Below are positions 19,740-48,206 of a DNA stretch of 50,752 nt, in pieces; position 1 is the first letter of the stretch, and each line of letters begins with the position of its first letter. The notes under the pieces are model-generated. The model saw only the letters and a program-made list of their open reading frames with translations. It did not search any database and was not told the DNA's origin. The translations under genes and the position numbers were made by a program. Source of the DNA: Jimgerdemannia flammicorona (lineage: Eukaryota); assembly GCA_003990765.1 (NCBI GenBank), contig RBNJ01000026.1, positions 1 through 50,752 of the forward strand, in the 5' to 3' direction.

Positions 19740-22700
19740 ATGTGAGAACCTCCCCCTGCATCATTAACAACAAAGTTACCTTCACACCTATTACTCCCAC
19801 CCTACCCCCACTCTGCCCACAAATCTTCTCTACCAAGTGATGCCATTGCCCACCCTGTAATCTCCAACCAAGCCATCAGTCTGTCAGAGTGTCTTCCATT
19901 AGTCTATGCTAGTGCAGCAGCTGATCCCCCAGGCTCAATCACCTCCCTTCTTCAAAAACAAGCAACCAGTGACCTGCCAACCCCACTCAAATTGCCAAAG
20001 TCCAACCCAATGTGAGCCACTCCTTTCCCACCCTCTCCACCAGTCTATCCCTCAAGTCCTCCCACCAGTCCTACATATGTACCATTTCCCCTATATGCTA
20101 CTCCCAAACAATCTCCAACAACCCTCCAAAAGTCACTAAGTACCTCATACTCTCCTAGCCAATGTTTAGGTGTCTGTATATATCTCCCAACCTGCCCTAC
20201 ATTATAGCACTCCTCACAGTCAAAACAACCCCCCATGACAAGGTGGCCTGAACAAAAGTTGAGCATGACATTTCTCCTCAATATGCACCACCAGATCACC
20301 CAGTACTTCAGTGGCATCTACCTCCGCACCTCAGCACTCTATGCCCAAATACCATGCCAGTCTTACTTCTCACCAATCCCCACCCCCTGCCATCTGCTAG
20401 GCCACAGATTCTGGCCTGGTCCTCATTGGCAGTCTATCTCATCACCAATGTCAAACTCGATTAAGGGCATGCCTCTCAGCAATACACAATCCCATCTCCA
20501 CATTACCAGGTCCCAAGCCTCATCTCCTTCATTTCCTCACCAACATATTTCAATACAGTGTACCCTCTCTACTACTCCCCACCAGAATCCTTTGTAATGT
20601 AGTTGGGCAATGTTCTGAAGTCCAACCAATGATAGGAAATCTCCTATTGAGCCTCTTGGTGAAGACCTCAACTCCCAAACTTTCTGCAAGAGCAGAACCC
20701 AACTGCCTCCTCTCAGCTCCATTACTCTCTTCATCCACCATACTCTCAGGCAATGTAGCCTCTTCAGGAAGTCAACCAGTCCAAGACCTCCTCTTTCCAC
20801 TGGTAAGGACAAGACCTCCCAACTGATCTGACTCCTCCTTCCAGCCCAGATCCACCCTTTGGTCAGCTTCAATAGTCTCTTTACCACCCAGGCTGGGAAA
20901 TCCAAATGATAAGCCAGATACCACAACTTTGGCAGCCAATAGACATTCAGAACTGATACACACCCCACCAGAGACAAGTGGCAACCTCCCCAGCTCCACA
21001 GGGCCTCCCCCAGACTCCTATTCACTGTTCCCACCAGAGTCTGGAAAGTGCTGATCTATATACTGACAAATAAATACCCAAGTACCACACTACCTCACCA
21101 GCAGGGACAATCATTCCAATAATGTCTCCCCCTACCAGGCCATTACCTAATACCATTGTCTCATACTTATACTAATTGAGTTTGGCCTCTGAGTTCATCT
21201 CATACCACTCCACTGTCTTCTTGAGCTCTTCAACATCAGTAATAGATCCCCGACTAACCACCATGGCATCTGCAAAGGCCCCAACTTTCCACCCAATTCC
21301 ATAGATATTGAGCCCTTCTATCTTCCTCTGAATTCTGTCCATTAGGGGTTCCAGTGAAAGAGTATACAGAATGGGGGTCAGTGGGTCCCCCTGCAGAACA
21401 CCCCTTCTCAGGGGAAATGGTACCCCTCTATACCCATTACAAATAAGTGCAGCCCTACTCCCTTCTAACAGGCTGACTATCACTAACCGGAACTAGTGTA
21501 GAACTCCAATTCTGTCCAATACTTTTGCTAGCCAGACTCACCTCACCCAGTCATAAACCTTCTCCTGATCTAAGAACACCAGTCTCCTATCTAGTCCACA
21601 AGCTCGTGCCCCTTTGATAATACCATGCACTCAGGCCATGCCATCTCTAATGAGCCAGCTGCCTACAAAGCCCCTCTGCTCAATACTCAAAACTTGCTGG
21701 GCCACCTTCTGTAGCCTCATGACTACCATCTTTGTGACCAATTTTCTGTCCATATCCAGCAGCATGATCAGCCGCCAGTTCTTCCAGTCCTCTCTCCTTC
21801 CTTTGTTCTTATAAAGCAGTAATACCAGCCCCAGATCCTGCTCCCCCACTCATCTCCCTGTCTGTAGGATAAAGTCACACAGTGCTGTCATCTCACCTAG
21901 TACTCTGGGAACTCCCACCATTTTCTTCCAGAAGTTCCAGGGCAGACCATCCTTCCCAGGTACAGTGCCCAGCATTGTCACCACAAGAACCTGGTAAATC
22001 TCTTCTTCTTGAACTGGCAGCACCAAGTCCTCCAGCCCATCCACTTGTGGGAGGTGCCAATCCTCCAATATCTGATCAATAGCATTAGGGTCAGCTCCAC
22101 CCTCCTCCTCACTCCACAATCCACTCTACCACTCCTTAAGCAATCCAAGAATGTCTTGTACACTATGTACTAGTATACCCTTATAGTCAATCACCCCCTC
22201 CTATCGTTACTGTATCCTTCTCACCTAAAGGGCCCTTGTGAGGTACTTTGAGGGCCTCTCCCCTTCCTCCAAATTCTGCCAACAAAGCTGTGCCACTAAG
22301 CTCTGTACTCTGGCCTCCTCCTCTTCCCATAGCATCTGTTGCAATTCTTCAACTTCCAATTTAGCCCTCCTCAACCTCCAGTCCTCACCTCCCACTGATG
22401 TTACAAGGCCTGCCCAGTCCTTTAAGAGTCAAGATAGCCTACCAGTAGCCCATCTCACCCATCACCTCCTCTGCTTCTCTACCTCCCTACCAATCTCACT
22501 CCAGTAGGCCCTTGTCCTCTCTTTCAACCTCATCTACTAAATACCAACAGGGGTACCTTTCTGTCTCCAGCTTGTCACCCTTAGTTGTATATCTTCAGCC
22601 CACTCATCCCACTGTCTCCCATCATCTAATAAAGAGACATTGAGGTGTCAATGTCCAGGCCTATTCCTACTTCCCCTGAAATGTCCTCATCCTAACAACT

Positions 22701-23385
22701 CTCAATAATCTGACCATGGACACCATTCTATCTCCAGTGACTTCTAGACATCCAAGCCCCAGCAGCTAGCAGTCAAAATCCAGTCAATCCTTGTCCCCAG
22801 ACCCCCTGCCCAATGTGTGTACACTCTCCTATCTCTCTAGCATTTCCTATCTACATCTACCAGAGCACTAAGTCTTTCCACTTCCTCCCATGCCACCAGC
22901 CCTCCACTCCTAGTCTCAGCTCCCCAGCCACCATCTGTTCTATCCAATCATGCATCCTGGACTATGTTGAAATCTCTATCAAGCATATTCACTCTAGCTT
23001 CTGCAAGAACCCCACTCTCCTGAAGACTCTGCACCTAATCTACAAATTCACCCTGCACAGCGGGGCAATAACAGGAGCCCACCATGACCAGCTCCCAACC
23101 CATATATATCCATTCTCCCCAGACCAGTCTATCTCCCCAGCTCCTCACATCCCATATCTCCCCTCTGCCTTTCCAGACCAGAATTCCCACCTTGCCCTTC
23201 CAGACTGCCTCTCCTCCCCATTCCTTCATCCAATCTAGTCTATCCAAATCATCTTCACACTGGACATCCTGCAATAGAAAGAGATCAGCATCCAATCCCT
23301 TCAGCCAAGTAAAAATGTTCCTATGTCAAAGAGTACTCCTCAGCCCATTTACGTTCAAAGAAAAAATGTTGGTTATACTATTCAT
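19740..23385 (-). pseudogene. LINE ORF2: APE endonuclease, reverse transcriptase, C-terminal Cys/His finger
   Basis: MNSITNIFSLNVNGLR, LFLLQDV, RIDWIL, PGKDGLP, NWRLIMLLD.D.K, GVLQGDPLTP, AFADAMVV, YLG, LPVERGGLGL, CFDC...H. Disrupted by stops. Confidence 0.9.
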
Positions 23386-23416
23386 AGTGAAATATGGTGT
23401 GTTATCTCATCCAACC

Positions 23417-25264
23417 CTACTGCTCCATGTTCCTCACTTCCTGCACTAAGTCTAGATTATATTCCACAGTCACCGCCTCCTCCTCAGTCCTCTGAGCCTC
23501 CAATCCAGCCAACAGCTCATTCATCTCTCTATCTGCCTTCTCCTCGAACTCTTCCCAGTACTCTAGGCAGGCCTCCTGCCAGAGCTGCAAACCATGATGC
23601 TTGGTCCAGCAGTATTCAGCCCTCTCGCCAGCAACACCTGCCAATTCTGCCTCTCACTCCTCATCCACCTCATACCCTTCCTCCTCCAAATAAACAGCAA
23701 GAATTTCTGCCTTCAATACCAACACCACTCCATCCCCCTGCAGGATCCTCACCCAATACTCATCACTCATAACCCTCAAGTCCACCTCCCCCAACTCATC
23801 AGCCATCAGGTTATTCATCATCTGATACATCCAAAGTAAGTTTCCTACCTCCTTCCCTCCAGAAGTCACTGGCCTCCCTCCATCCAGCATTGTGGTGTCA
23901 GCTCTGGCACTTGCAGACTCATCCCATGCCTCAGAGACATCCACTAGTTCCTCCTCCCTGGCTGCTACCCCTTGTCTCCTGTCCACTACCTCTGGAACTC
24001 CAAATTGAACTTGCTGGGCCCCCCACATAAGCACATCCTCCTCCATCCTTCATCAGGAAGCCGGACCACATCTGATAAGTGGGGTTGGGGTAGGTGAGGC
24101 TTCCCCATCCTCCTCCCAGACCTCCAACATACCATCAGCATAGAGGTCATTGCCCACCACCTCCTTGTCCTCTCCAGTCTCCTTCTCAGTGCCCCCACCA
24201 CTCTCACCTGCCCAGACACTCACTTTAGCATCTGCTATCTCCACCATTCCACCTGCATTCTTCTGTGACCTCCTCTCCAGCTTTGCCAGCAGCTCCTTCT
24301 GTCTCTTGCACCCCTGAGCCCTTTCTCACTATCTCTTGTCTACTCAGATCTGCTTCCCATCCACTACCTCCAGGCATGTGGACTCCACAAATACCTTTCA
24401 AGCCTTTGCCCTCCACTTCACCATGCCACCCAGCTCTTCCAGCACTTCCAACAAGTCCTCTTCCTCCTCCTCACTCCCCTTCACCCTTGTCACCTTGCAC
24501 AAGATTGCCCTCCAGACTATTACTGAAGGCCAGTCTCTCACCTTTCTGGTAGCTTCCTTCTCTGCCAGCCAAATCCTCACATCAACATCTCTAGTCCAGA
24601 GTGAGGTCCCTTTCCATACTCTAAAGCTGATGTCTACCACATCACCATACTCTGTCATAACCTCTTCAACTCTCCTTCTTGTCTCCACTGCTGTTACTGT
24701 AGATACCCCTTTCACCAACAGTTGTACCACCCTGGGATTCCACCTCAGACAGTGCATCATCAGAACACACACCTCCCCAACTGTCAATCCCACCTTCAGT
24801 GCCTCCTCCAACAGCTCAGCCTCCTCAAATCCCACCTCTACTCCCTCCAAACCCTTCAGAAACTTTATGGATACTGCTCCAGCCATCTGTTTAGTGATGA
24901 GACCCAGTACCATTTTTGCCATCACTACTAGGCCCCAGAAGCATAGAGTAACTACAAATGCCAAGATCAACTTCTTGAGTAATGGAGCCACTGCCAGGCC
25001 CATCACACCATCAGCCAAATCCTCTGATCTTCCAAGCCCCTGCCACTCAGTCCCACCATTGGTAGTTACATCTGGATTTTTTTCCAGATTGGCAGTCCCA
25101 TCTCCATCAGCTGTCATGCTCCCCCCAGCCACTATACCCCCAGCTCCACTGCCCCCACCACCAAGGGCTACTCCTCCCTGTACTGCTGTCTTCCCCACCT
25201 CCTTGCCTCTCCTCAGCCATCCCTCCAGCCCAGACACCTACTGTCTCCCCTTTACCATTTCCAT
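23417..25264 (-). pseudogene. LINE ORF1 (gag-like, fragmented)
   Basis: Long purine-rich ORF pieces (24398-25237, 23654-24046, 23417-23644) directly upstream of ORF2 and inside the TSD-bounded element. Confidence 0.65.
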
Positions 25265-27401
25265 GAAGCTCACCCTTCCAGACCCTGGTTCTCTACCACT
25301 GCCTCCTCCTCTACCACATCCTCCTGCCAGCAGTTCCCTCATACCTCCCCCCAGCCCAGGGCCTTGCCCCACCTGCTGCCAGTCAAACTTGCTTGGGCCA
25401 CCCTATCTAGTATGTACCTCAGATTGCTGGTCAGTCACTATGTTGCTAGTTACTTTCTCCAATAAACAGTGTTGTAAATGCTTTCCAAAGATTGTATAAC
25501 CTGAATGATACTGGAAAGAGCCATGCTGTATAACTGTTATTCTTCTGGCATTCTGATCTTGTATAACTCAAAATTCTTCTGGTATTCTTTTTCTATATCA
25601 TCAAAATTCTACTGGCATTCTAAACTTATACAATTACTTATACAGACAACTATAGTTTTCTATGTTCCAGTATTTTATTTGGTTATTGGAATTTATATTT
25701 AGCTTTATAACTTAGCAACCATTAAATTATTTTGTATAAATACCCCTCTTATTTCCTTTGAAATAAAGTTAGTTCTAGTTTACTTACTCTCAATTCCATG
25801 CAAGCAATCTAAAAGATAATAAGATAGTTTAAAGATAAGAAGTTTGAGGACTATAAGATCTTGGAAAGGTACTCCAATAAGAACTTGCTTATAACAAACT
25901 TGAGGTTAGTCTAAGAGATATATCTTGGAGAGAATCTGATATATTTGAAGAACTCAGCAACCACTATGTGACAACTTAGTATCTATTGGCTGGTGATTTA
26001 AGATGAATCCCTCACTTTCAAGCTAAAAAACAAACAACCACCACAATAACTACTCTGACTACAAGAGTCACCCCTGCAAGAATTCAAGACAAGATGGAAA
26101 TGTGTCTCTCTACATTCTATAGATAAGAGTCAATCCTGATCTTTATTAAAGACTTTGAACAATTTGCTACTATATGAGCCCTTGGCATAGATGCACAATT
26201 GGCCCTTCTATCTGTTAGTCTCAGAGGATCTACCAGAGACAAGTTCAATATAGCCATCATTGCTGATACTAGTGTAGCCAAACTGGTCAACATAAAGACC
26301 TTTCTCAGAACTACATACTATATTGAAGAGATCAAGCAAGCTCTCAAAGATTAACTCAATACTATCTGCCAGGGACTCAGTAAAGATTCCAACTCATTCT
26401 ACACTTGAATCTGCTACCAGATTGTCTTGGCTAACTATGATGATCACCTCAAGAATCAAATAGCTGATTCAACCTTTCTTAAAAGAGTTCATCCTGAAAT
26501 TGTCCTAGCAATCTGATCTATCCCAGCTGCTCTGATCCTTGATCAGAAAGTGATCTTTTTATAGAGATATTGGACTGCCAGACACCCTGCTGAATACTTA
26601 ATAAAGAAAATAACTAGCATCAAGAGAGAGCCATCAAAGTCAACCAGTATCATATCTGCCACAGTTGTAAACAGACAACTATTCCCACCTATTCCTGAGG
26701 TAGCCAAAGCTGACCTAGTAGAGGAACTCACCAAGCAGTTTACTGAGATAACTATATACCTTAGTGATATTGTTAGAGAAGTCTGAAGTACCAATAGGAG
26801 ACCAGTACAGAGATTTGCAGTTGTTACAGAAGAATGCAATATCACATACTTCAGATGTAGAGAAGAAGACCACTATACAAAGAGTTGTATGACTGAAATA
26901 AGATACAAAGTCCAACCAAGCAATGCTACCAGAACTAGAGAACAAACCAATACAGTAGTCATTGAGGAGATTAGTGACACTGATGATGAAGAATACTAAA
27001 AAGAGTCTGAATTCTACTCTGTTACTGAAGATGCCAGAACCTGGTCCAGCCCTATGATATGAAGAGCAACTGCAAGCCAGTTGGAAGACCAAAGAAGACT
27101 CTAGCTGTCATTATTCAAAGCAAGACCCAATCTGAGGAGATTGATCAATATATGGAGCTAGATGAAGCTGCTCACCAAATTATTGAAGATACTACTTCAG
27201 TCTCAGGAGAAAGTAAAAGCAAGAAAGAACAGAAGCTATGTAAGACTAAGATCTTATAAGGATCTCAAGGAATAGAAGGTCAATACTACTTTTGGACAAC
27301 TAGCTAAAGTCCCTGCCTTTAGACAGTAGTTGAGAGTAGGACTTACAACTACTACTAAGAATCAAGAGTATAAGATTGTAGAAGCTCACAATGCACAAAA
27401 A

Positions 27402-41290: not shown

Positions 41291-44200
41291 TCATTCTCGA
41301 TGCTTTCCTTTATTCCTAAATTTTCTGAATATCCTCCTAATTGGAATACGGAAAATTTTCAGAAACCTGCGCTTTGATGGGGTTTGAGTAGAGGAGTGGG
41401 CCTGCTCATCTGAAGGGGTTATAGAATGATAGTTGAATTCGGAATGGGATGGTAGATTGGACGTGGTAAGATCTTGTTCCACACCAACGACGTTGATAGG
41501 CTCCGCCATGATTTCACCAACCATAGCAGGGTTTATAGGGAGGTTGGCGGGTTCAGAATGGAACGGCGGATTGGATGTGGTGAGATCTGGATCTAAATCG
41601 ACGACTGCGTTAGACTCAGTTTTGATTTCATCAACCATAGCAGGAGTTTTCTCAGGATATTCCGCAATATTCTTGCCATTTTCGTCTTTGGAGATTCTTT
41701 TAATCAACTCATCCTCTGTGTGATACTTGCTGATGGAGCCAGCAACGAACGTAAACCTAGAAATGCCGGAGGGAATCTCCTTTTGTATTTTCTCTAGATA
41801 TGCCACGGCTTCAGGGACGTCGTCTAGCCATTTTTCGCCAGCGATTTCTGTCTCCATAGCTTCAAGATCTTCCAACACCTCATCGATAGTCGGTCGCATT
41901 TCGGGGTTAAGATTCCAGCACCTCTTGTAGATGTCCGAATATTCGATCGGAGTGCCGGGGATGGGTTCCTCACGTAATCCAGGTGAGATCGCATCGGGCG
42001 GACGCATTGCATTTCCACGAGGGCAGAATCTTGCGGTAAGCTGCCACAAAAGTGTTCCGAGGCAATATATATCGGATTTCTTCGTGCATGGTGAGCGTGT
42101 AAATGCTTCAGGTGGAAGGTATTCAATGCGGCCATAGGATTGGCCGCCGTATTTTCTGAAGTGTTGTACCGTGTTGCTAATGCCGACGTCAATAATCATG
42201 GGGTTGTCGTTCGCTGTACCGAATAATACAATGTTTCCTGGGTGCAAGTCATTATGGATCAAATCAGCTGTATGAACCACTTGCAGCCTGCAGGTGATTT
42301 CTAGCGCAAGCCGCCATACGTTTGACCATGATTTTGGCGGAGACTTAGTGAGTAGATTTGCAAGGTCACCACCGGCAGCATATTCCATCACCAAAATATA
42401 ACCGCCATTATCATTCTTTGATAATCCAATAACTGTTGGTGTTGCTACTCTACGAGAATTGCTGCAGAGTTGAAGATAGACATTGAGTAATATCTGTATA
42501 AGAATTAGAAAAATGGAATCCAACCCAAGTTAGTAATGGAAAACAATATATCCTTAATTTCCACAGATACAAAAGAGTATATTGTAAACTGGAATCACCT
42601 CATTCCGGAGTTTATCTATTACATGATCATTTCCTTTCAGCTCCTTCAACGCAACAAATTTTTCTCCTTTCCGATTATCATTCACTTGAGCTTTGTATAC
42701 GATGCCAAATCCACCTTCGCCTAACTTTTCAATCTGTGTAAACTCACAATAAGGAATCCAAGTCATGCAAGGTGCGAGTTCGGCGATTTGAAGCATTGTT
42801 AGGTACTCCAGGAGTTTCTCATCATCACTGGAGAAGCCAGTCTTGAATTTTGACATAACTTTGATGTCAGAATTTTTGATTACTTCAATAATTTGAACAA
42901 GATGCAATTTGCTTGAGGCTGTTTCATGAAATCCAGCCAGCATTCGAAGGTCATGAGTCGAGTATTTTGTCCAAGTGGTAAACGACAGTTCGTACAGTTT
43001 TTACATACCATTGAGATTGTATTTCGACTTTGCCAAATACGCGTTCCGTTCCTGAAACGTATTAATAACACGCAATGTTTCGTCCCCAATGCGATTGTCT
43101 GATGAACAGTGGAAACACGCATGGGGTGAGCTGATATCCATTATGTAGCTGCAAACAGCAGTTCATACATACCTTGTAGATTCAGCGTGGTCACGGTCAT
43201 GTTCTGCTTCAGCGACTCGGCCAGTGCGCGTGCTCCCTCGTCGCCGATTCCGTTGTCTGAATATGAACAAAGGATGAATAAGCACACAACACACAGATGG
43301 TGAGCTGGTACCCATCACGCAGCTCAAAATACCTCGGAGATTCAGCGTAGTCACGGTGGTGTTCTGCTTCAGAGACTCGGCCAGTGAACGTGCTCCCTCG
43401 TCACCGATTCCGTTGTCTGAAGGTGAAGAGAGCAAGTACGCATGATTGGTGAGCTGGTATCCAACATGCAGTTGCAAACAGCAGTTCACAAAGTTCAAAC
43501 ATACAATCGAGATTCAGCGTGGTCACGGTCGTGTTCTGCTTCAGAGACGCGGCCAGTGCGCGTGATCCCTCCTTGCCGATTCCGTTGCCTGAAGATGAGC
43601 AGATGATAGATTACCAAACAATCTCCAGTGGTGAGCTAGTACACATCATATAGCTGCAAAAAAAAGTTCAGAGTTCAAACATACGTTGGAGATTCAGCGT
43701 GGTCATGGTCATGTTCTGCTTTAGAGACTCGGCCAGTGCGCGTGATCCCTCCTTACCGATTTCGTTCTCTGAAGATGGACAGAGGATGAATCAGCCAACA
43801 CGTATGGGTGGTGAGCTACCCATCACGTAGCTGCAAACAGCAGTTCACACGATCCAAACATACTTTCAAGATTCAACGTGGTCACAGACGTATTCTGCTT
43901 CAGAGACGCAGCCAGTGCGCGTGCTCCCTCGAGGCCGATTCTGTTGTCTGACGATGAACAGAGAATGCATGAGCAAATGGAGTAAGTATATACCCATCAC
44001 GCAGCTCGAAGTCTTGTTCCGCTTGAAAGCCTTGTCTATGTCAATTATCATCTCGACGCCTTTAAACTCATTCCTTGAAAAATGCATAAATACGCACATC
44101 GGATCACCTACATTCAAAAAGTCACCGACATACCTTCGACGTTCAGCTGCGTAAGTGCCGTGTTTTGTTTCAGAGACTCAGCCAGAACACGGGCACCCTC

Positions 44201-47200
44201 ATCGCCGATGCTATTCACTAAAAAATGCACAAATACACATAGGTCAGCTAGATCGAATCACCCGCATTTAAATAGTCACACACTGATTTCCGACATACTT
44301 TCGAGATTCAGCTGGGTAAGCGTCATGTTCTGCTTCAGAGACTCGGCCAGAGCATGAGCACCCTCAGCGCCGACTTTATTATCTAAATGAACATACACGG
44401 GTTAGCTGGATCAAATCACCCACATTCAAACAGCCACACACTGACTTCCGGCATACCTCCGAGATTCAGCTGGGTAAGGGTCGTGTTCTGCTTCAGAAAC
44501 TCCGCCAGAGCACGAGCACCATCAGCGCCGATAGAGTTCCCTGAAAAATACACAAATACGCACAAGTCAGCTGGATTGAATCACTCATATTCAAACATTG
44601 ATTTCTGACTGACTGTAGAGATCCAGCTGAGTAAGGGTCGTGTTCTGCTTCAGTGAAGCGGCCAGTGCGCGTGCTCCCTCGAGGCCGATTCTGTTGTCTG
44701 ACGGCGAACAGAGGATGGGTGAGCAAACACACACAGGTGGTGAGCAGGTCCATCACGCAGCTTAAACATACCATAGAGATTCAGCGTGGTCACGGTCGTG
44801 TTTTTCTCCAGAGACTCGGCCAATGCTTGTGCTCCCTCGTGGCCGATTCGGTTGTCTGAAGGTAAGCAGAACATGGATAAGCAAACACGCATGGCCGATG
44901 AGCTGGTACCCATCACGTAGCTGCAAACAGCAGTTCACACAGTTCAAACATACGTTGGAGATACAGCGTGGTGTCGGTCGTGTTCTGCTTCAGAGACTCG
45001 GCCAGTACGCGTGCTCCCTCGTCGCCTATTTCGTTATCTGAAAATGAAGAGAGAATGGATGAGCAAACACGCGCGACCCATCCCATAACTGCAGACAACG
45101 GTTTTCGTAATTTCGACATACCCCTGATATTTGGTTTAGTCAAAGTCTTGTTCCTCTTCAAAGCTTTATCTACTATCTCGCCGCCTTTAAACACATCCCC
45201 TGAAAAATGCACAAATACGCATAAGTCAGCTGAATCGAATCACCCACATTCAAACAGTCACCAGACATACTTTTGAAATTCAGCTGGGTAAGGGTCATGT
45301 TCTGCTTCAGAGACTCGGCTAGAACACGGGCACCCTCATCGCCGATTTGGTTTTCTAAATGAGTACGCACAGATCAGCTGGATCGAATCACCCACATTCA
45401 AACAGTCACATACTGTTTCCGACATACCTTCGAGATTCAGCTGGCTAAGGGTCGTGTTCTGCTTCAGAGACTCGGCCAGAACACGGGCACCCTCAGTGCC
45501 GATTTTGTTACCTAAACGAATACGCGCAGGTCAATTGGATTGAATCACCCTAAACAGCGCACACTGATTTCCGACATACCGTAGAGATTCAGCTGGGTAA
45601 GGGTCGTGTTCTGCTTCAGAAACTCCGCCAGAGCACGAGCACCCTTAGCGCCGATTTTGTTCCCTGAAATTCACAAATACGCACAGATCAGATCAACCAA
45701 ATCACCCACATTCAAACAGCCTAACACTAATTTCCGACATACTTTTGAGATTTAGCTGGGTAAGCGTCGTGTTCTGCTTCAGAGACTCGGCCAGGGCACG
45801 GACACCCTCATCACCGATGATATTCCCTGAAAAATATACAAATAGCACAGATCAGCTGTATCGAATCACCCACATTCAAAGTCACACATTGATTTTCGAC
45901 ATACCGTAGAGATCCAGCTGGATAAGGGTTGTGTTCTGCTTCAGAGACTCGGCCAGAGCACAGGCACCCTCAGCGCTGATTTCGTTATCTAAATTAATAC
46001 GTACAGGTTAACTGGATCGAATCACCCACATTGATACAGTTGCACACAAATTTCCGACATACCTCCGAGATTCAGCCGGGCAAGAGTCGTGTTCTGCTTC
46101 AGAGACTCGGCCAGAGCACGAGCACCCTCAGCGCCGATGCTATTCACTGAAAAATGCACAAATATGCACTAGTCAGCTGGATGGAATCACCCACATTCAA
46201 ACAGTTACACACTGATTTCCGACATACCGTAGAGATCCAACTGGGTAAGGGTTGTGTTCTGCTTCAGAGACTCAGCCAGAGCACGGGCACCCTCAGCACC
46301 GATACTATTCACTGAAAATGCACAAATATGCACTAGTCAGCTGGATCGAATCACACACATTCAAACAGTTAAACACTGATTTCCGATATACTGTAGAGAT
46401 CCAGCTGGATAAGGGTTGTGTTCTGCTTCAGAGACTCGGCCAGAGCACGGGCACCCTCAGCGCCGAATTCGTTTTCTAAATAAATACGCACAGGTTAGCT
46501 GGATCGGGTCACACATATTCAAACAGTTGCACACTAATTTCCGACATACTTCCGAGATTCAGCTGATTAAGGGTCGTGTTCTGCTTCAGAGACTCGGCCA
46601 GAGCACGGGCATCCTTAGCGCGGATGCCATTTCCTGAAAAATGCACAAATACGTATAGGTCAGCTGGATCGAGTCACCCACATTCAAATAGTCACACATT
46701 GAATTCCGACATACTGGAGAGATTCAGCTGGGTAAGGGTCGTATTCTGCTTTAGAGACTCGGCCAGAGCACAGGCACCCTCAGCGTCGATTTTATTATCT
46801 AAATGAATACACACGGGTCAGCTGGATCGAATCACCCTCATGAAAACAGAACAAACCGATTTCGGACATAATTACATTCGAGATTCAGCTGGGTAACGGT
46901 CGCGTTCAGCTCCAGAGCCTCGGCCAGAGCACGGGTACCCTCATTGCCAATTATGTTACCTATAATGAATATGCACACTTCAGCTGGATATATTCAAATA
47001 GTCCCACACTGATTTACGACATACATACCTCCGAGATTCAGCTGGGTAAGTGTCGTGTTCTGTTTCAGAGATTCGGCTAGAGCACGACCACCCTCAGAGC
47101 CAATGCTATTTCCTGAAAATTCACAAATACGCACAGATCAGTTGGATCAAAGCACCAACAACCAAATAGTCACACACTGATTTCCGACATACTGGAGAGA

Positions 47201-48206
47201 TTCAGCTGAGTAAGGGTTGCGTTCTGCTTCAGAGACTCGGCCAGAGCACGGGCACCCTCAGCGCGAATGTTATTCTCTAAAAAATGCACAAATACGCATA
47301 GGTCAGCTGGATCGAATTTACCCACATTCAAACAGCACACATCAATTTCCGACATACTTTCGAGGTTCAGCTGGGTAAGCGTCGTGTTCTGCTTCAGAGA
47401 CTCGGCCAGAGCACGAGTACCCTCGTCGCTGATGTCATTCCCTGAAAAATTCACAATACCCAAAGGTCAGCTGAATCAAATCATTGACATTCAAACAGCA
47501 CACATTGATTTACGACATACATTCGAGATTCAGCTGGGTAAGCGTCGTGTTCTGCTTCAGAGACTCTGCCAGAGCACGGGCACCCTCATTGCCAATTCCG
47601 TTATCTATAATGAATATGCACATGTCAGCTGGATGGAATCACCCACATTCAAACACTAATTTCAGACATACGGTAGAGATTCAACTGGGTAAGGGTCGTG
47701 TTCTGCTCCAGAGACTCGGCCAGAGCACCAGCACCGTCATCGCCAATGAAATTCCCTAAAAAAATTATAAATACGCACAAGTCAGCTGGACGGAATCACC
47801 CAAATAGTTATACACTGATCCCGATATACATATGAGATTCAGCTGGGTAAGGGTCGTGTTCTGCTTCAGAGACTCGGCCAGAGCACGGGCACACCTATCG
47901 CCGTAAAAATTTCCTGATAAAATGAACAAATACGCACAGATCAGCCAGATTGAATCATTCACATTCAAACAGTCACACACATACTTTTGAGATTCAGGTG
48001 TAAAAGGGTCGTGTTCTGCTTCAGAGACTCGGTCAACGCGAGTACACCGTTATTGTCAATACCCTCTCCTTAAGATAAACGGATGGATAAGTAAATAGGC
48101 ATAGATCGCCAGTTGAAACTCGTCAGACAGCTGCAATCAACAGTTCACTCAGTTCAAACATACCGGAGAGATCCAGCGTAGTCTGGGTCGTGAGAAGTGT
48201 TCGCAT
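41291..48206 (-). CDS. Cytosolic LRR (RNI/NLRC3-like) - tyrosine-kinase-like protein kinase, ~1389 aa, 34 coding exons
   Basis: Exon 1 is 48206-48164 (MRTLLTTQTTLDLS). Then 29 exons of exactly 84 nt, with upper bounds 48068, 47913, 47755, 47604, 47441, 47276, 47112, 46959, 46798, 46633, 46475, 46311, 46146, 45988, 45826, 45663, 45511, 45354, 45037, 44855, 44697, 44540, 44382, 44217, 43947, 43768, 43588, 43416, 43256. Cap-like exons at 45199-45122 and 43098-43009; kinase exons at 42918-42599 and 42493-41291. All introns are GT-AG and the spliced frame is open. Kinase motifs: GEGGFG, VALK, HNDLHPGN, DVG, YLPPE, SDIY.LG, RP. Confidence 0.88.
43173..48068 (-). repeat. Tandem exon-intron array (~155-180-bp units), one 28-aa LRR per unit
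   Basis: Consensus xNxIGxEGARALAESLKQNTTLTQLNLx. Introns are mutually homologous and fall into two families. Confidence 0.95.

What the first reader, a model, noticed from the sequence alone, without database searches (positions are those of the whole stretch)
43864..45199. Recombination footprints: two exon-intron families interleaved, with a chimeric exon
Seen: type A units have introns GTATGTCGGAAATCAGTGTG...GATCCAGCTGAC and exons with LTQLNL. Type B units have introns GTATGTTTGAAC...GCAGCTACGTGATGGG and exons with VTTLNL. The order along the gene is B, long A block, B, short A block, B. Exon 44697-44614 has a type B 5' half and a type A 3' half. That 5' half plus acceptor is identical over ~43 bp to exon 43947-43864. 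Both A blocks end in a related cap-like exon. Inference: blocks of repeats were imported from another array by crossover or gene conversion in the conserved LKQNT core.
Basis: partly seen in the sequence, partly recalled or inferred. Interest (0 to 1): 0.7.

Follow-up and report, generated by a model that had tools for sequence, protein, structure and literature searches.

The report
Unequal crossover scar in fungal gene
A fungal gene that builds its leucine-rich-repeat domain from one small exon per repeat carries a real hybrid exon and a duplicated block left by an old unequal crossover, a known way of reshuffling repeat genes that is unusually easy to read here because two kinds of intron mark the breakpoints.

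Summary
The minus-strand gene is an Endogonales-like LRR-kinase, mostly one 84-nt exon per repeat. Exon 44697-44614 is a true B/A hybrid (breakpoint about 44656-44636) and appears intact in an RNA contig of another individual, which argues against misassembly. START-A(n)-cap-B(m)-kinase is the family's standard plan, so the first 'B' and the long A block are not imports. The short A block, second cap and following B half are best read as a duplicate of the stretch just upstream. The two caps are sisters, the pre-cap introns share a private deletion, and the shared 37-nt exon half occurs only here in the genome. The copy later lost about 380 bp; cap 2 has a dead acceptor and is skipped in RNA. 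No donor array was found, though an unassembled sister paralogue cannot be excluded. Similar hybrids occur in at least nine other contigs, breaking in the exon core, the only long homology between A and B. The mechanism is known from brown algae, Tetrahymena and fungal NLR repeats. The scan noted this gene family before on other contigs. Real, tidy, moderately interesting.

The parts
48164..48206 (-). Start exon (ATG at 48206, 43 nt, phase 1), followed by the family-wide B-like first intron
   Evidence: the start-intron motif has 29 matches in G000
47985..48068 (-). Exon 1, family-wide first LRR exon (B-like acceptor side, A-type 3' half)
45200..47913 (-). Long A block: exons 2-18 with A-type introns; the standard first LRR block of the family
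45122..45199 (-). Cap 1, 78-nt irregular capping repeat with intact AG/GT
   Evidence: its use in RNA is not shown
44698..45037 (-). B exons 20-21 with B introns; intron 21 (44771-44698) is the short B type
44614..44697 (-). Hybrid exon 22: B 5' half, A 3' half; crossover between about 44656 and 44636
   Evidence: whole exon in RNA contig X2 record 8 with no other letters
44541..44613 (-). Intron 22, A type, with a rare GTCAGT donor (1 of 488 typed introns); retained in RNA contigs, which gives a stop after residue 635
44075..44540 (-). Short A block, exons 23-25 and introns; in register with exons 16-18 (offset 1,120-1,140)
44009..44074 (-). Cap 2, dead copy of cap 1: acceptor CAA, 3' end and donor deleted
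   Evidence: RNA contigs join the end of exon 25 to the shared exon 22/27 start
43948..44008 (-). Remnant of a short B intron (homologue of intron 21) fused to cap 2; marks a deletion of about 380 bp in the second copy
43864..43947 (-). B exon 27, which shares 43 identical nt (6 intron, 37 exon) with exon 22
43099..43768 (-). B exons 28-31 with B introns
   Evidence: joints 27-28, 28-29 and 30-31 in X1; 30-31 and 31-terminal in X1 and X2
43009..43098 (-). Terminal capping exon, a distant homologue of the internal caps
41291..42918 (-). Kinase exons (42918-42599 and 42493-41291), Pfam PK_Tyr_Ser-Thr

Best explanation
The ancestral gene had the family plan START-A(n)-cap-B(m)-terminal-kinase. 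Two copies of this locus (sister chromatids or alleles) misaligned by seven repeat units. They crossed over in the invariant LAESLKQNT core between the third B exon and an A exon about three units before the cap. This made hybrid exon 22 and a tandem duplicate of about 1.1 kb (A3-cap-B2-B half). All exons are phase 1-1, so the frame survived. Later the second copy lost about 380 bp (cap end through two B exons) and its cap acceptor, so cap 2 is now spliced out, and A units went on turning over by conversion. A-B exchanges break in the exon core because only there do A and B share long identity. Shown: the hybrid exon, breakpoint interval, sister caps, private markers, dead and skipped cap 2, and recurrence in paralogues. 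Inferred: same-locus origin, order of events, and any effect on ligand binding.
For: The 37-nt exon 22/27 half has 2 matches in the genome at up to 1 mismatch, both here. The best non-self match of intron 25+cap 2 is intron 18+cap 1. Caps 1 and 2 are sisters, 89/83 among 18 rows and 93/80 among 23 rows, with C25 next at 100/99. The short pre-cap donor occurs only in introns 18 and 25 across 60 loci. Rare-allele ranking makes exon 16/23 5' halves mutual best of 317 and exon 22/27 5' halves mutual best of 222. A-B exact matches have a median of 14 nt in exons (2,701 of 3,000 centred at nt 30-59) against 7 nt (maximum 13) in introns. Of 412 introns typed at both ends, 410 are pure. C21875 shows a young example of the same event type, with cap+B3+half-exon duplicated at 761 of 771 nt. 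RNA contigs X1 and X2 join exon 25 to the shared acceptor, and X2 (4 SNPs in the kinase exon) holds exon 22 whole. All exons except cap 2 give a 1,389-codon open frame.
Against: The register is carried by few markers. In-register identity of the short block (83.8%) barely beats other offsets (up to 83.5%); introns 15/22 and 16/23 are only 78% alike and exons 18/25 79%. Exons 24 and 25 rank other units first. Raw similarity of the short block is higher to near-consensus paralogues (87-88%), though the end of the long block behaves the same way (88-90%). 21 of 23 private 13-mers shared within the window come from the 43-nt stretch alone. The 3'-half trees place exon 22 with A (100/99, 100/100) but do not reject B (AU p=0.315 and 0.108). 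Cap sisterhood is not starred. Only 40 of 589 candidates were scored, and the assembly has 35,354 contigs.
Confidence: 0.68

Rival explanations
1. Ectopic crossover between two close sister paralogues: the 5' part (through exon 22's 5' half) came from one gene and A3-cap2-B5-kinase from the other, which has since been lost or is not assembled. This is the defensible form of the first reader's import idea.
For: The two copies differ by about 10-22%, which needs either an old duplication or already diverged parents. Exchange between genes is seen in the family: the A-cap block sits on two kinase modules whose compared parts are only 27% identical.
Against: No such donor among 12 cap-motif matches, 2 matches to the 37-mer or 60 loci examined. 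Private markers are shared only inside this gene.
Confidence: 0.2
2. A one-step template switch or long conversion tract: repair left the B exon in its core, copied A3-cap from the upstream block or a paralogue, and returned through a few bases of microhomology into intron 21. This re-copied the intron end and exon half, so no separate deletion is needed.
For: The cap 2/intron fusion lies at a TT(T/C)GA-like word present in both cap and short B intron (sequence). The exon 22/27 halves are 95% alike over nt 1-41. Capless B-A-B tracts exist in C17872, C12518, C18612 and C5312.
Against: The re-copied intron part is only 79% identical, as old as the rest. Cap 2 also lost its acceptor independently. 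The microhomology is at most 5 nt and one base differs.
Confidence: 0.08
3. Misassembly: the mosaic was stitched from different loci at the 43-nt repeat, or several tandem copies of exons 22-25 were collapsed to one.
For: Short-read style assembly of 35,354 contigs. X2 record 8 runs exon 25 into the whole of exon 22, as collapsed tandem copies would also give.
Against: Exon 22 is continuous across its breakpoint in RNA of a differing individual, and intron 22 is contiguous with exons 22 and 23 in two runs. The copies are too diverged to collapse with each other. The X2 path is reproduced as a graph loop through the shared 37 nt.
Confidence: 0.04

Closest known systems
Ectocarpus ROCO and LRR-kinase genes with one LRR per exon (Zambounis et al. 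2012, PMC3341825; passages read)
   Same: One repeat per exon, inactivated repeat exons inside introns, and traceable intra- and intergenic recombination in the LRR domain; LRR-kinases with two exon types are described.
   Different: There the exons are 72 nt (24 aa), inverted exons occur, and type II LRR-kinase exons are reported not to shuffle. Here they are 84-nt phase-1 repeats with conserved introns of two kinds in fixed order, and breakpoints lie inside exons. No inverted exons were sought.
Tetrahymena 90-bp-exon LRR genes (Xiong et al. 2019, PMC6564038; passages read)
   Same: Arrays of equal-length exons of one intron phase, a junction codon shared by two exons, unequal crossing over within and between genes, some fused to kinases.
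   Different: 90 nt, phase 2, thousands of genes, with a linked retrotransposon. Here tens of genes, 84 nt, phase 1; a transposon link was not tested.
Podospora hnwd WD40 repeat arrays and fungal NLRs (Chevanne et al. 2010, PMC2873952, passages; Dyrka et al. 2014, PMC4986451, passages)
   Same: Fungal repeat domains that form chimeric units by unequal crossover and conversion.
   Different: WD/ANK/TPR repeats on NACHT or NB-ARC proteins; Dyrka et al. found no LRR motifs in fungal NLRs. This gene has LRRs and a kinase, no NOD domain was found, and it has an intron after every repeat.
Ribonuclease-inhibitor-like 28-residue LRRs of animal NOD/NLRC proteins (recalled, not from a call)
   Same: 28-residue repeat of Pfam LRR_6 type (below the curated cut-off for single exons); one repeat per 84-nt exon is recalled for these genes.
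   Different: No NACHT domain and a C-terminal kinase; a literature search for the exon layout returned nothing.

Membership tests
Unequal-crossover tandem duplication | Hybrid unit at the junction of the two copies | tested here: met
   22.3 bits against a maximum of 10.5 among 488 pure units; breakpoint at nt 41-62
Unequal-crossover tandem duplication | Head-to-tail copies whose nearest relatives are each other | tested here: met
   Caps, pre-cap introns, exon 16/23 and exon 22/27 halves
Unequal-crossover tandem duplication | Uniform in-register similarity along the whole copy | tested here: inconclusive
   77-95% by part; interior A units not above background
Import from a pure type A array | Second block or cap groups with pure-A genes | tested here: not met
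   AU p=0.0002 against cap 2 plus 6 pure-A caps; 3 further pure-A caps were not extracted
Import from a sister A-cap-B paralogue | A surviving donor closer than the window's own first copy | tested here: inconclusive
   None; assembly fragmented and searches partial
Exon-per-repeat LRR genes (Ectocarpus/Tetrahymena type) | Equal-length symmetric exons, one repeat each, spliced in RNA | tested here: met
Exon-per-repeat LRR genes (Ectocarpus/Tetrahymena type) | Variable repeat number and mosaics among paralogues | tested here: met
Classical exon shuffling by intronic recombination | Breakpoints inside introns, whole exons moved | tested here: not met
   For A-B switches the breakpoints are in exons; 410 of 412 fully typed introns are pure. 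Some pre-cap introns do look A/B mixed.
Fungal NLR | NACHT or NB-ARC domain | tested here: not met
   Pfam on the C-terminal frames finds only kinase families; the rest of the frame is LRR exons
Somatically rearranged or immune receptor | Rearrangement within one individual, or a recognition function | not testable with these tools
   Only assembled contigs were available

The most novel reading that the evidence does not exclude
These Endogonales genes form a combinatorial receptor repertoire. The START-A(n)-cap block and the B(m)-terminal block are exchanged between different kinase modules and remixed through the exon core. The exon 22-25 segment, bounded by the 43-nt repeat, is still rearranging: it varies in copy number among nuclei or strains, or is back-spliced, as a literal reading of the exon 25-to-exon 22 RNA contig would imply.
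Probability: 0.12. Interest if true: 0.72.

Novelty: new member of a known kind. Interest (0 to 1): 0.4.

Why it matters
LRR receptors were reported absent from fungal NLR repertoires (PMC4986451), so a recombining LRR-kinase family in an early-diverging fungus is worth knowing. Two full-text searches for such a family found no description: one search gave one paper on endobacteria (listing only) and none. Subscription papers and supplements were not seen. The two intron types act as built-in markers that place crossovers to about 20 nt and let events be counted across paralogues, which repeat arrays rarely allow. The mechanism itself is textbook, and no function is shown.

Tried and rejected
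1) An intron-centred recombination module, with the variable residues at both sides of an intron inherited together. Not supported: among 201 A triples in 30 loci, only acceptor-side intron class and the next exon's start are linked (z 12-16). There is no linkage across the exon or across the intron. Among 58 B triples one across-exon pair was linked (z 3.7). The exon core is therefore not a special hot spot within a type.

2) Post-cap intron as an A-gene/B-gene hybrid that would date the family's origin: inconclusive, since its 5' part scores alike against both.

3) The 43-nt identity as proof of recent conversion: within chance.

4) Raw nearest-neighbour identity: misleading, because near-consensus arrays attract everything.

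5) AU tests on 3' halves did not reject B, in two tries.

6) A JGI metagenome scan with the 37-mer found 0 matches.

7) Parts without RNA cover, which prove nothing: cap 1 bins at about 0 in X1, the cap 2 bin at 0 in all three runs, exon 27 bins at 0 in X2. No exon 21-22 joint is among the 15 joints shown (17 hidden). The overhangs after exon 25 (37 nt in X1, 85 in X2) match simulated graphs without an exon 21-22 joint rather than the plain linear model (29 nt). This rests on a recalled k of 31, and graph cleaning could have pruned the edge. So continuity of the long A block with the 3' part in one mRNA is not shown.

8) X3 (share 0.05, depth 2, 19-nt side) was not counted as bridging.

9) Four in-frame AG..GT inclusions inside the cap 2 stretch are possible on paper but have no RNA support.

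10) Homologue searches with the kinase returned no protein with an LRR family listed.

11) The script stopped before ranking exon 31's 3' half and the intron 26 remnant.
Full report
The gene. On the minus strand an ATG at 48206 opens a 43-nt exon. It is followed by 31 exon-like repeat units (48068-43173), a terminal exon and two kinase exons. The last kinase exon matches Pfam PK_Tyr_Ser-Thr (E 2e-22), and single repeat exons match LRR_6 weakly, below the cut-off. The nearest named kinase relatives are from Endogone and Jimgerdemannia. All exons except cap 2 give an open frame of 1,389 codons. Eight earlier scan notes describe one-repeat-per-exon LRR/kinase genes on other contigs of this genome; none came up for chimeric exons.

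A and B exons differ at 8 diagnostic sites, five before nt 33 and three after nt 64, with a shared core between. Exon 22 (44697-44614) reads BBBBB|AAA and lies between a B and an A intron. A two-part model gains 22.3 bits, against at most 10.5 among 488 pure units, and places the switch at exon nt 41-62. In trees of 28 window units (exon 1 and both caps left out), its 5' half pairs with exon 27 (97/90) inside B and an A placement is rejected (p=0.0017). Its 3' half falls with A (100/99), but B is not rejected (p=0.315; 0.108 with the whole intron). Cap 2 is a ruin. Its acceptor reads CAA, and after 66 nt it is fused to the middle of a short B intron like intron 21.

The family plan. I fetched 59 stretches from contigs named by the searches; one search scored only 40 of 589 candidates. 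With the window they gave 617 parsed exons in 53 of 60 loci. The start-intron motif has 29 matches in the genome. The usual plan is START, a first exon with a B-like acceptor side, A(n), cap, B(m), terminal exon, kinase. Sixteen paralogues have a cap flanked by exons, and B follows in all of them. Only the second A3-cap-B needs explaining.

Where the second block came from. The 37-nt exon half shared by exons 22 and 27 has two matches in the genome, both here. Intron 25+cap 2 matches intron 18+cap 1 best. The caps are sisters (89/83; 93/80, which lacks 3 of 9 pure-A caps and the C12518 cap through failed extraction), with C25 next. A shortened pre-cap donor occurs only in introns 18 and 25. 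Exons 16 and 23 are mutual best matches among 317 5' halves and share a 60-nt run. These markers give offsets of 1,120-1,140 before cap 2 and 750 after it: a seven-unit duplicate that later lost about 380 bp. Against this, interior introns and exons 24-25 show no in-register signal. The copies differ by about 10-22%, so the event is old and partly overwritten. A crossover with a close sister gene now missing from the assembly would give the same picture.

Pure-A genes exist but are not the donor. A second group runs A(n)-cap into a different tail. Its linker motif has 12 matches, 9 with LRR exons within 1.5 kb upstream. In the one examined (C406) the tail holds two kinase domains, and the part compared is 27% identical to this gene's kinase. 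Cap 2 is rejected from their clade (p=0.0002). B-like arrays without A, on the same kinase as here, also exist (C39, C495). Block-level exchange between genes has thus happened in the family, in a direction I could not root.

Recurrence and mechanism. Internal B-to-A hybrids were seen in C21875, C17872, C12518, C18612, C11000, C8976, C3352 and C5312. A-to-B hybrids without a cap were seen in C17872, C18612, C12518, C25820 and C5312. Several share ancestry; by eye there are about five and four independent events. Those scored break at nt 32-62. C21875 carries a young duplicate of cap-B3-half exon at 761 of 771 nt. The reason is homology: A and B exons share exact runs (median 14 nt) centred on the core, while their introns share a median of 7. 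410 of 412 fully typed introns are pure. Within type A no such preference is seen. The most variable residues are the last one of the exon, the split junction codon and residue 2 (2.8-3.6 bits), so crossovers recombine variable positions without breaking the frame. That these residues bind ligand is inferred from general LRR structure (recalled).

RNA. Three runs were laid as contigs; for X1 and X2 'RNA' is the tool's guess, but their contigs join across GT-AG introns. X1 and X2 join exon 25 to the shared 37-nt start (sides 37 and 82 nt), which in the assembled order means cap 2 is skipped. X2 differs by 4 SNPs in the first kinase exon and holds exon 22 whole with no other letters. Both also hold an unspliced intron 22 (depth 88 against about 135-200 for spliced contigs in X1; 4 against about 10-12 in X2). 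Its GTCAGT donor is 1 of 488, and retention gives a stop after residue 635. X2's path from exon 25 into exon 22 can be a graph loop, a back-splice or a copy-number variant; contigs cannot tell these apart. Whether the long A block joins this 3' part in one mRNA is not shown.

Comparison and verdict. Exon-per-repeat LRR genes with intra- and intergenic recombination are described in Ectocarpus (PMC3341825, passages) and Tetrahymena (PMC6564038, passages). Chimeric repeat units made by unequal crossover are described in Podospora WD40 arrays (PMC2873952, passages). Fungal NLRs were reported to lack LRRs (PMC4986451, passages). Searches for this family in print listed no paper whose title or abstract start describes it; supplements and subscription papers were not seen. 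The finding is real and is explained by a known mechanism, in a family not found described. New member of a known kind, interest 0.4.

Noticed in passing
window about 48255-48240 (minus strand) and upstream of the ATG in paralogues: A TTAGGG/GGGTTAG telomere-like word lies upstream of the start exon in 17 of 22 loci checked, against a window background of 0.02-0.05 per 290 nt. The copies are paralogous, so not independent; possibly a promoter element.
   Followed up: partly
L040:5900-9000 (C406) and the loci: A second gene group joins the same START-A(n)-cap block to a different, intron-rich tail with two kinase domains (checked in C406 only).
   Followed up: partly
window 44613-44541: Intron 22 has a rare GTCAGT donor and is retained in RNA contigs of two runs, which would give a truncated LRR-only product or a decay substrate.
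   Followed up: partly
window 44217-44134 joined to 44697-44613: RNA contig X2 record 8 runs from exon 25 into the whole of exon 22: graph loop, back-splice or copy-number variant; unexplained.
   Followed up: partly
L023:1173-1260, L022:720-810, L025:1750-1830, L031, L053, L039: Many hybrid exons in paralogues are broken (stop, small deletion or dead donor), against 30 of 513 pure exons flagged. Several share one ancestor, so this was not tested.
   Followed up: no
L012, L023, L024, L027, L033 cap exons: Internal caps often have damaged splice sites or an alternative GTAAGT-like donor; the cap is a distant homologue of the terminal exon (z 2.4-6.6 against shuffles, though most caps score as well against B exons).
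   Followed up: partly
L095 (C39), L096 (C495): More diverged B-like arrays on the same kinase, with several start-like introns inside the array.
   Followed up: no
L007 (C31396) and L026 (C1596): Two contigs match the query at the same coordinates with nearly the same scores: a possible allele pair or very recent duplicate. L007 was left out of the counts.
   Followed up: no
window 20000-26000: Strong GC skew (-0.33 to -0.51) with raised GC; not examined.
   Followed up: no
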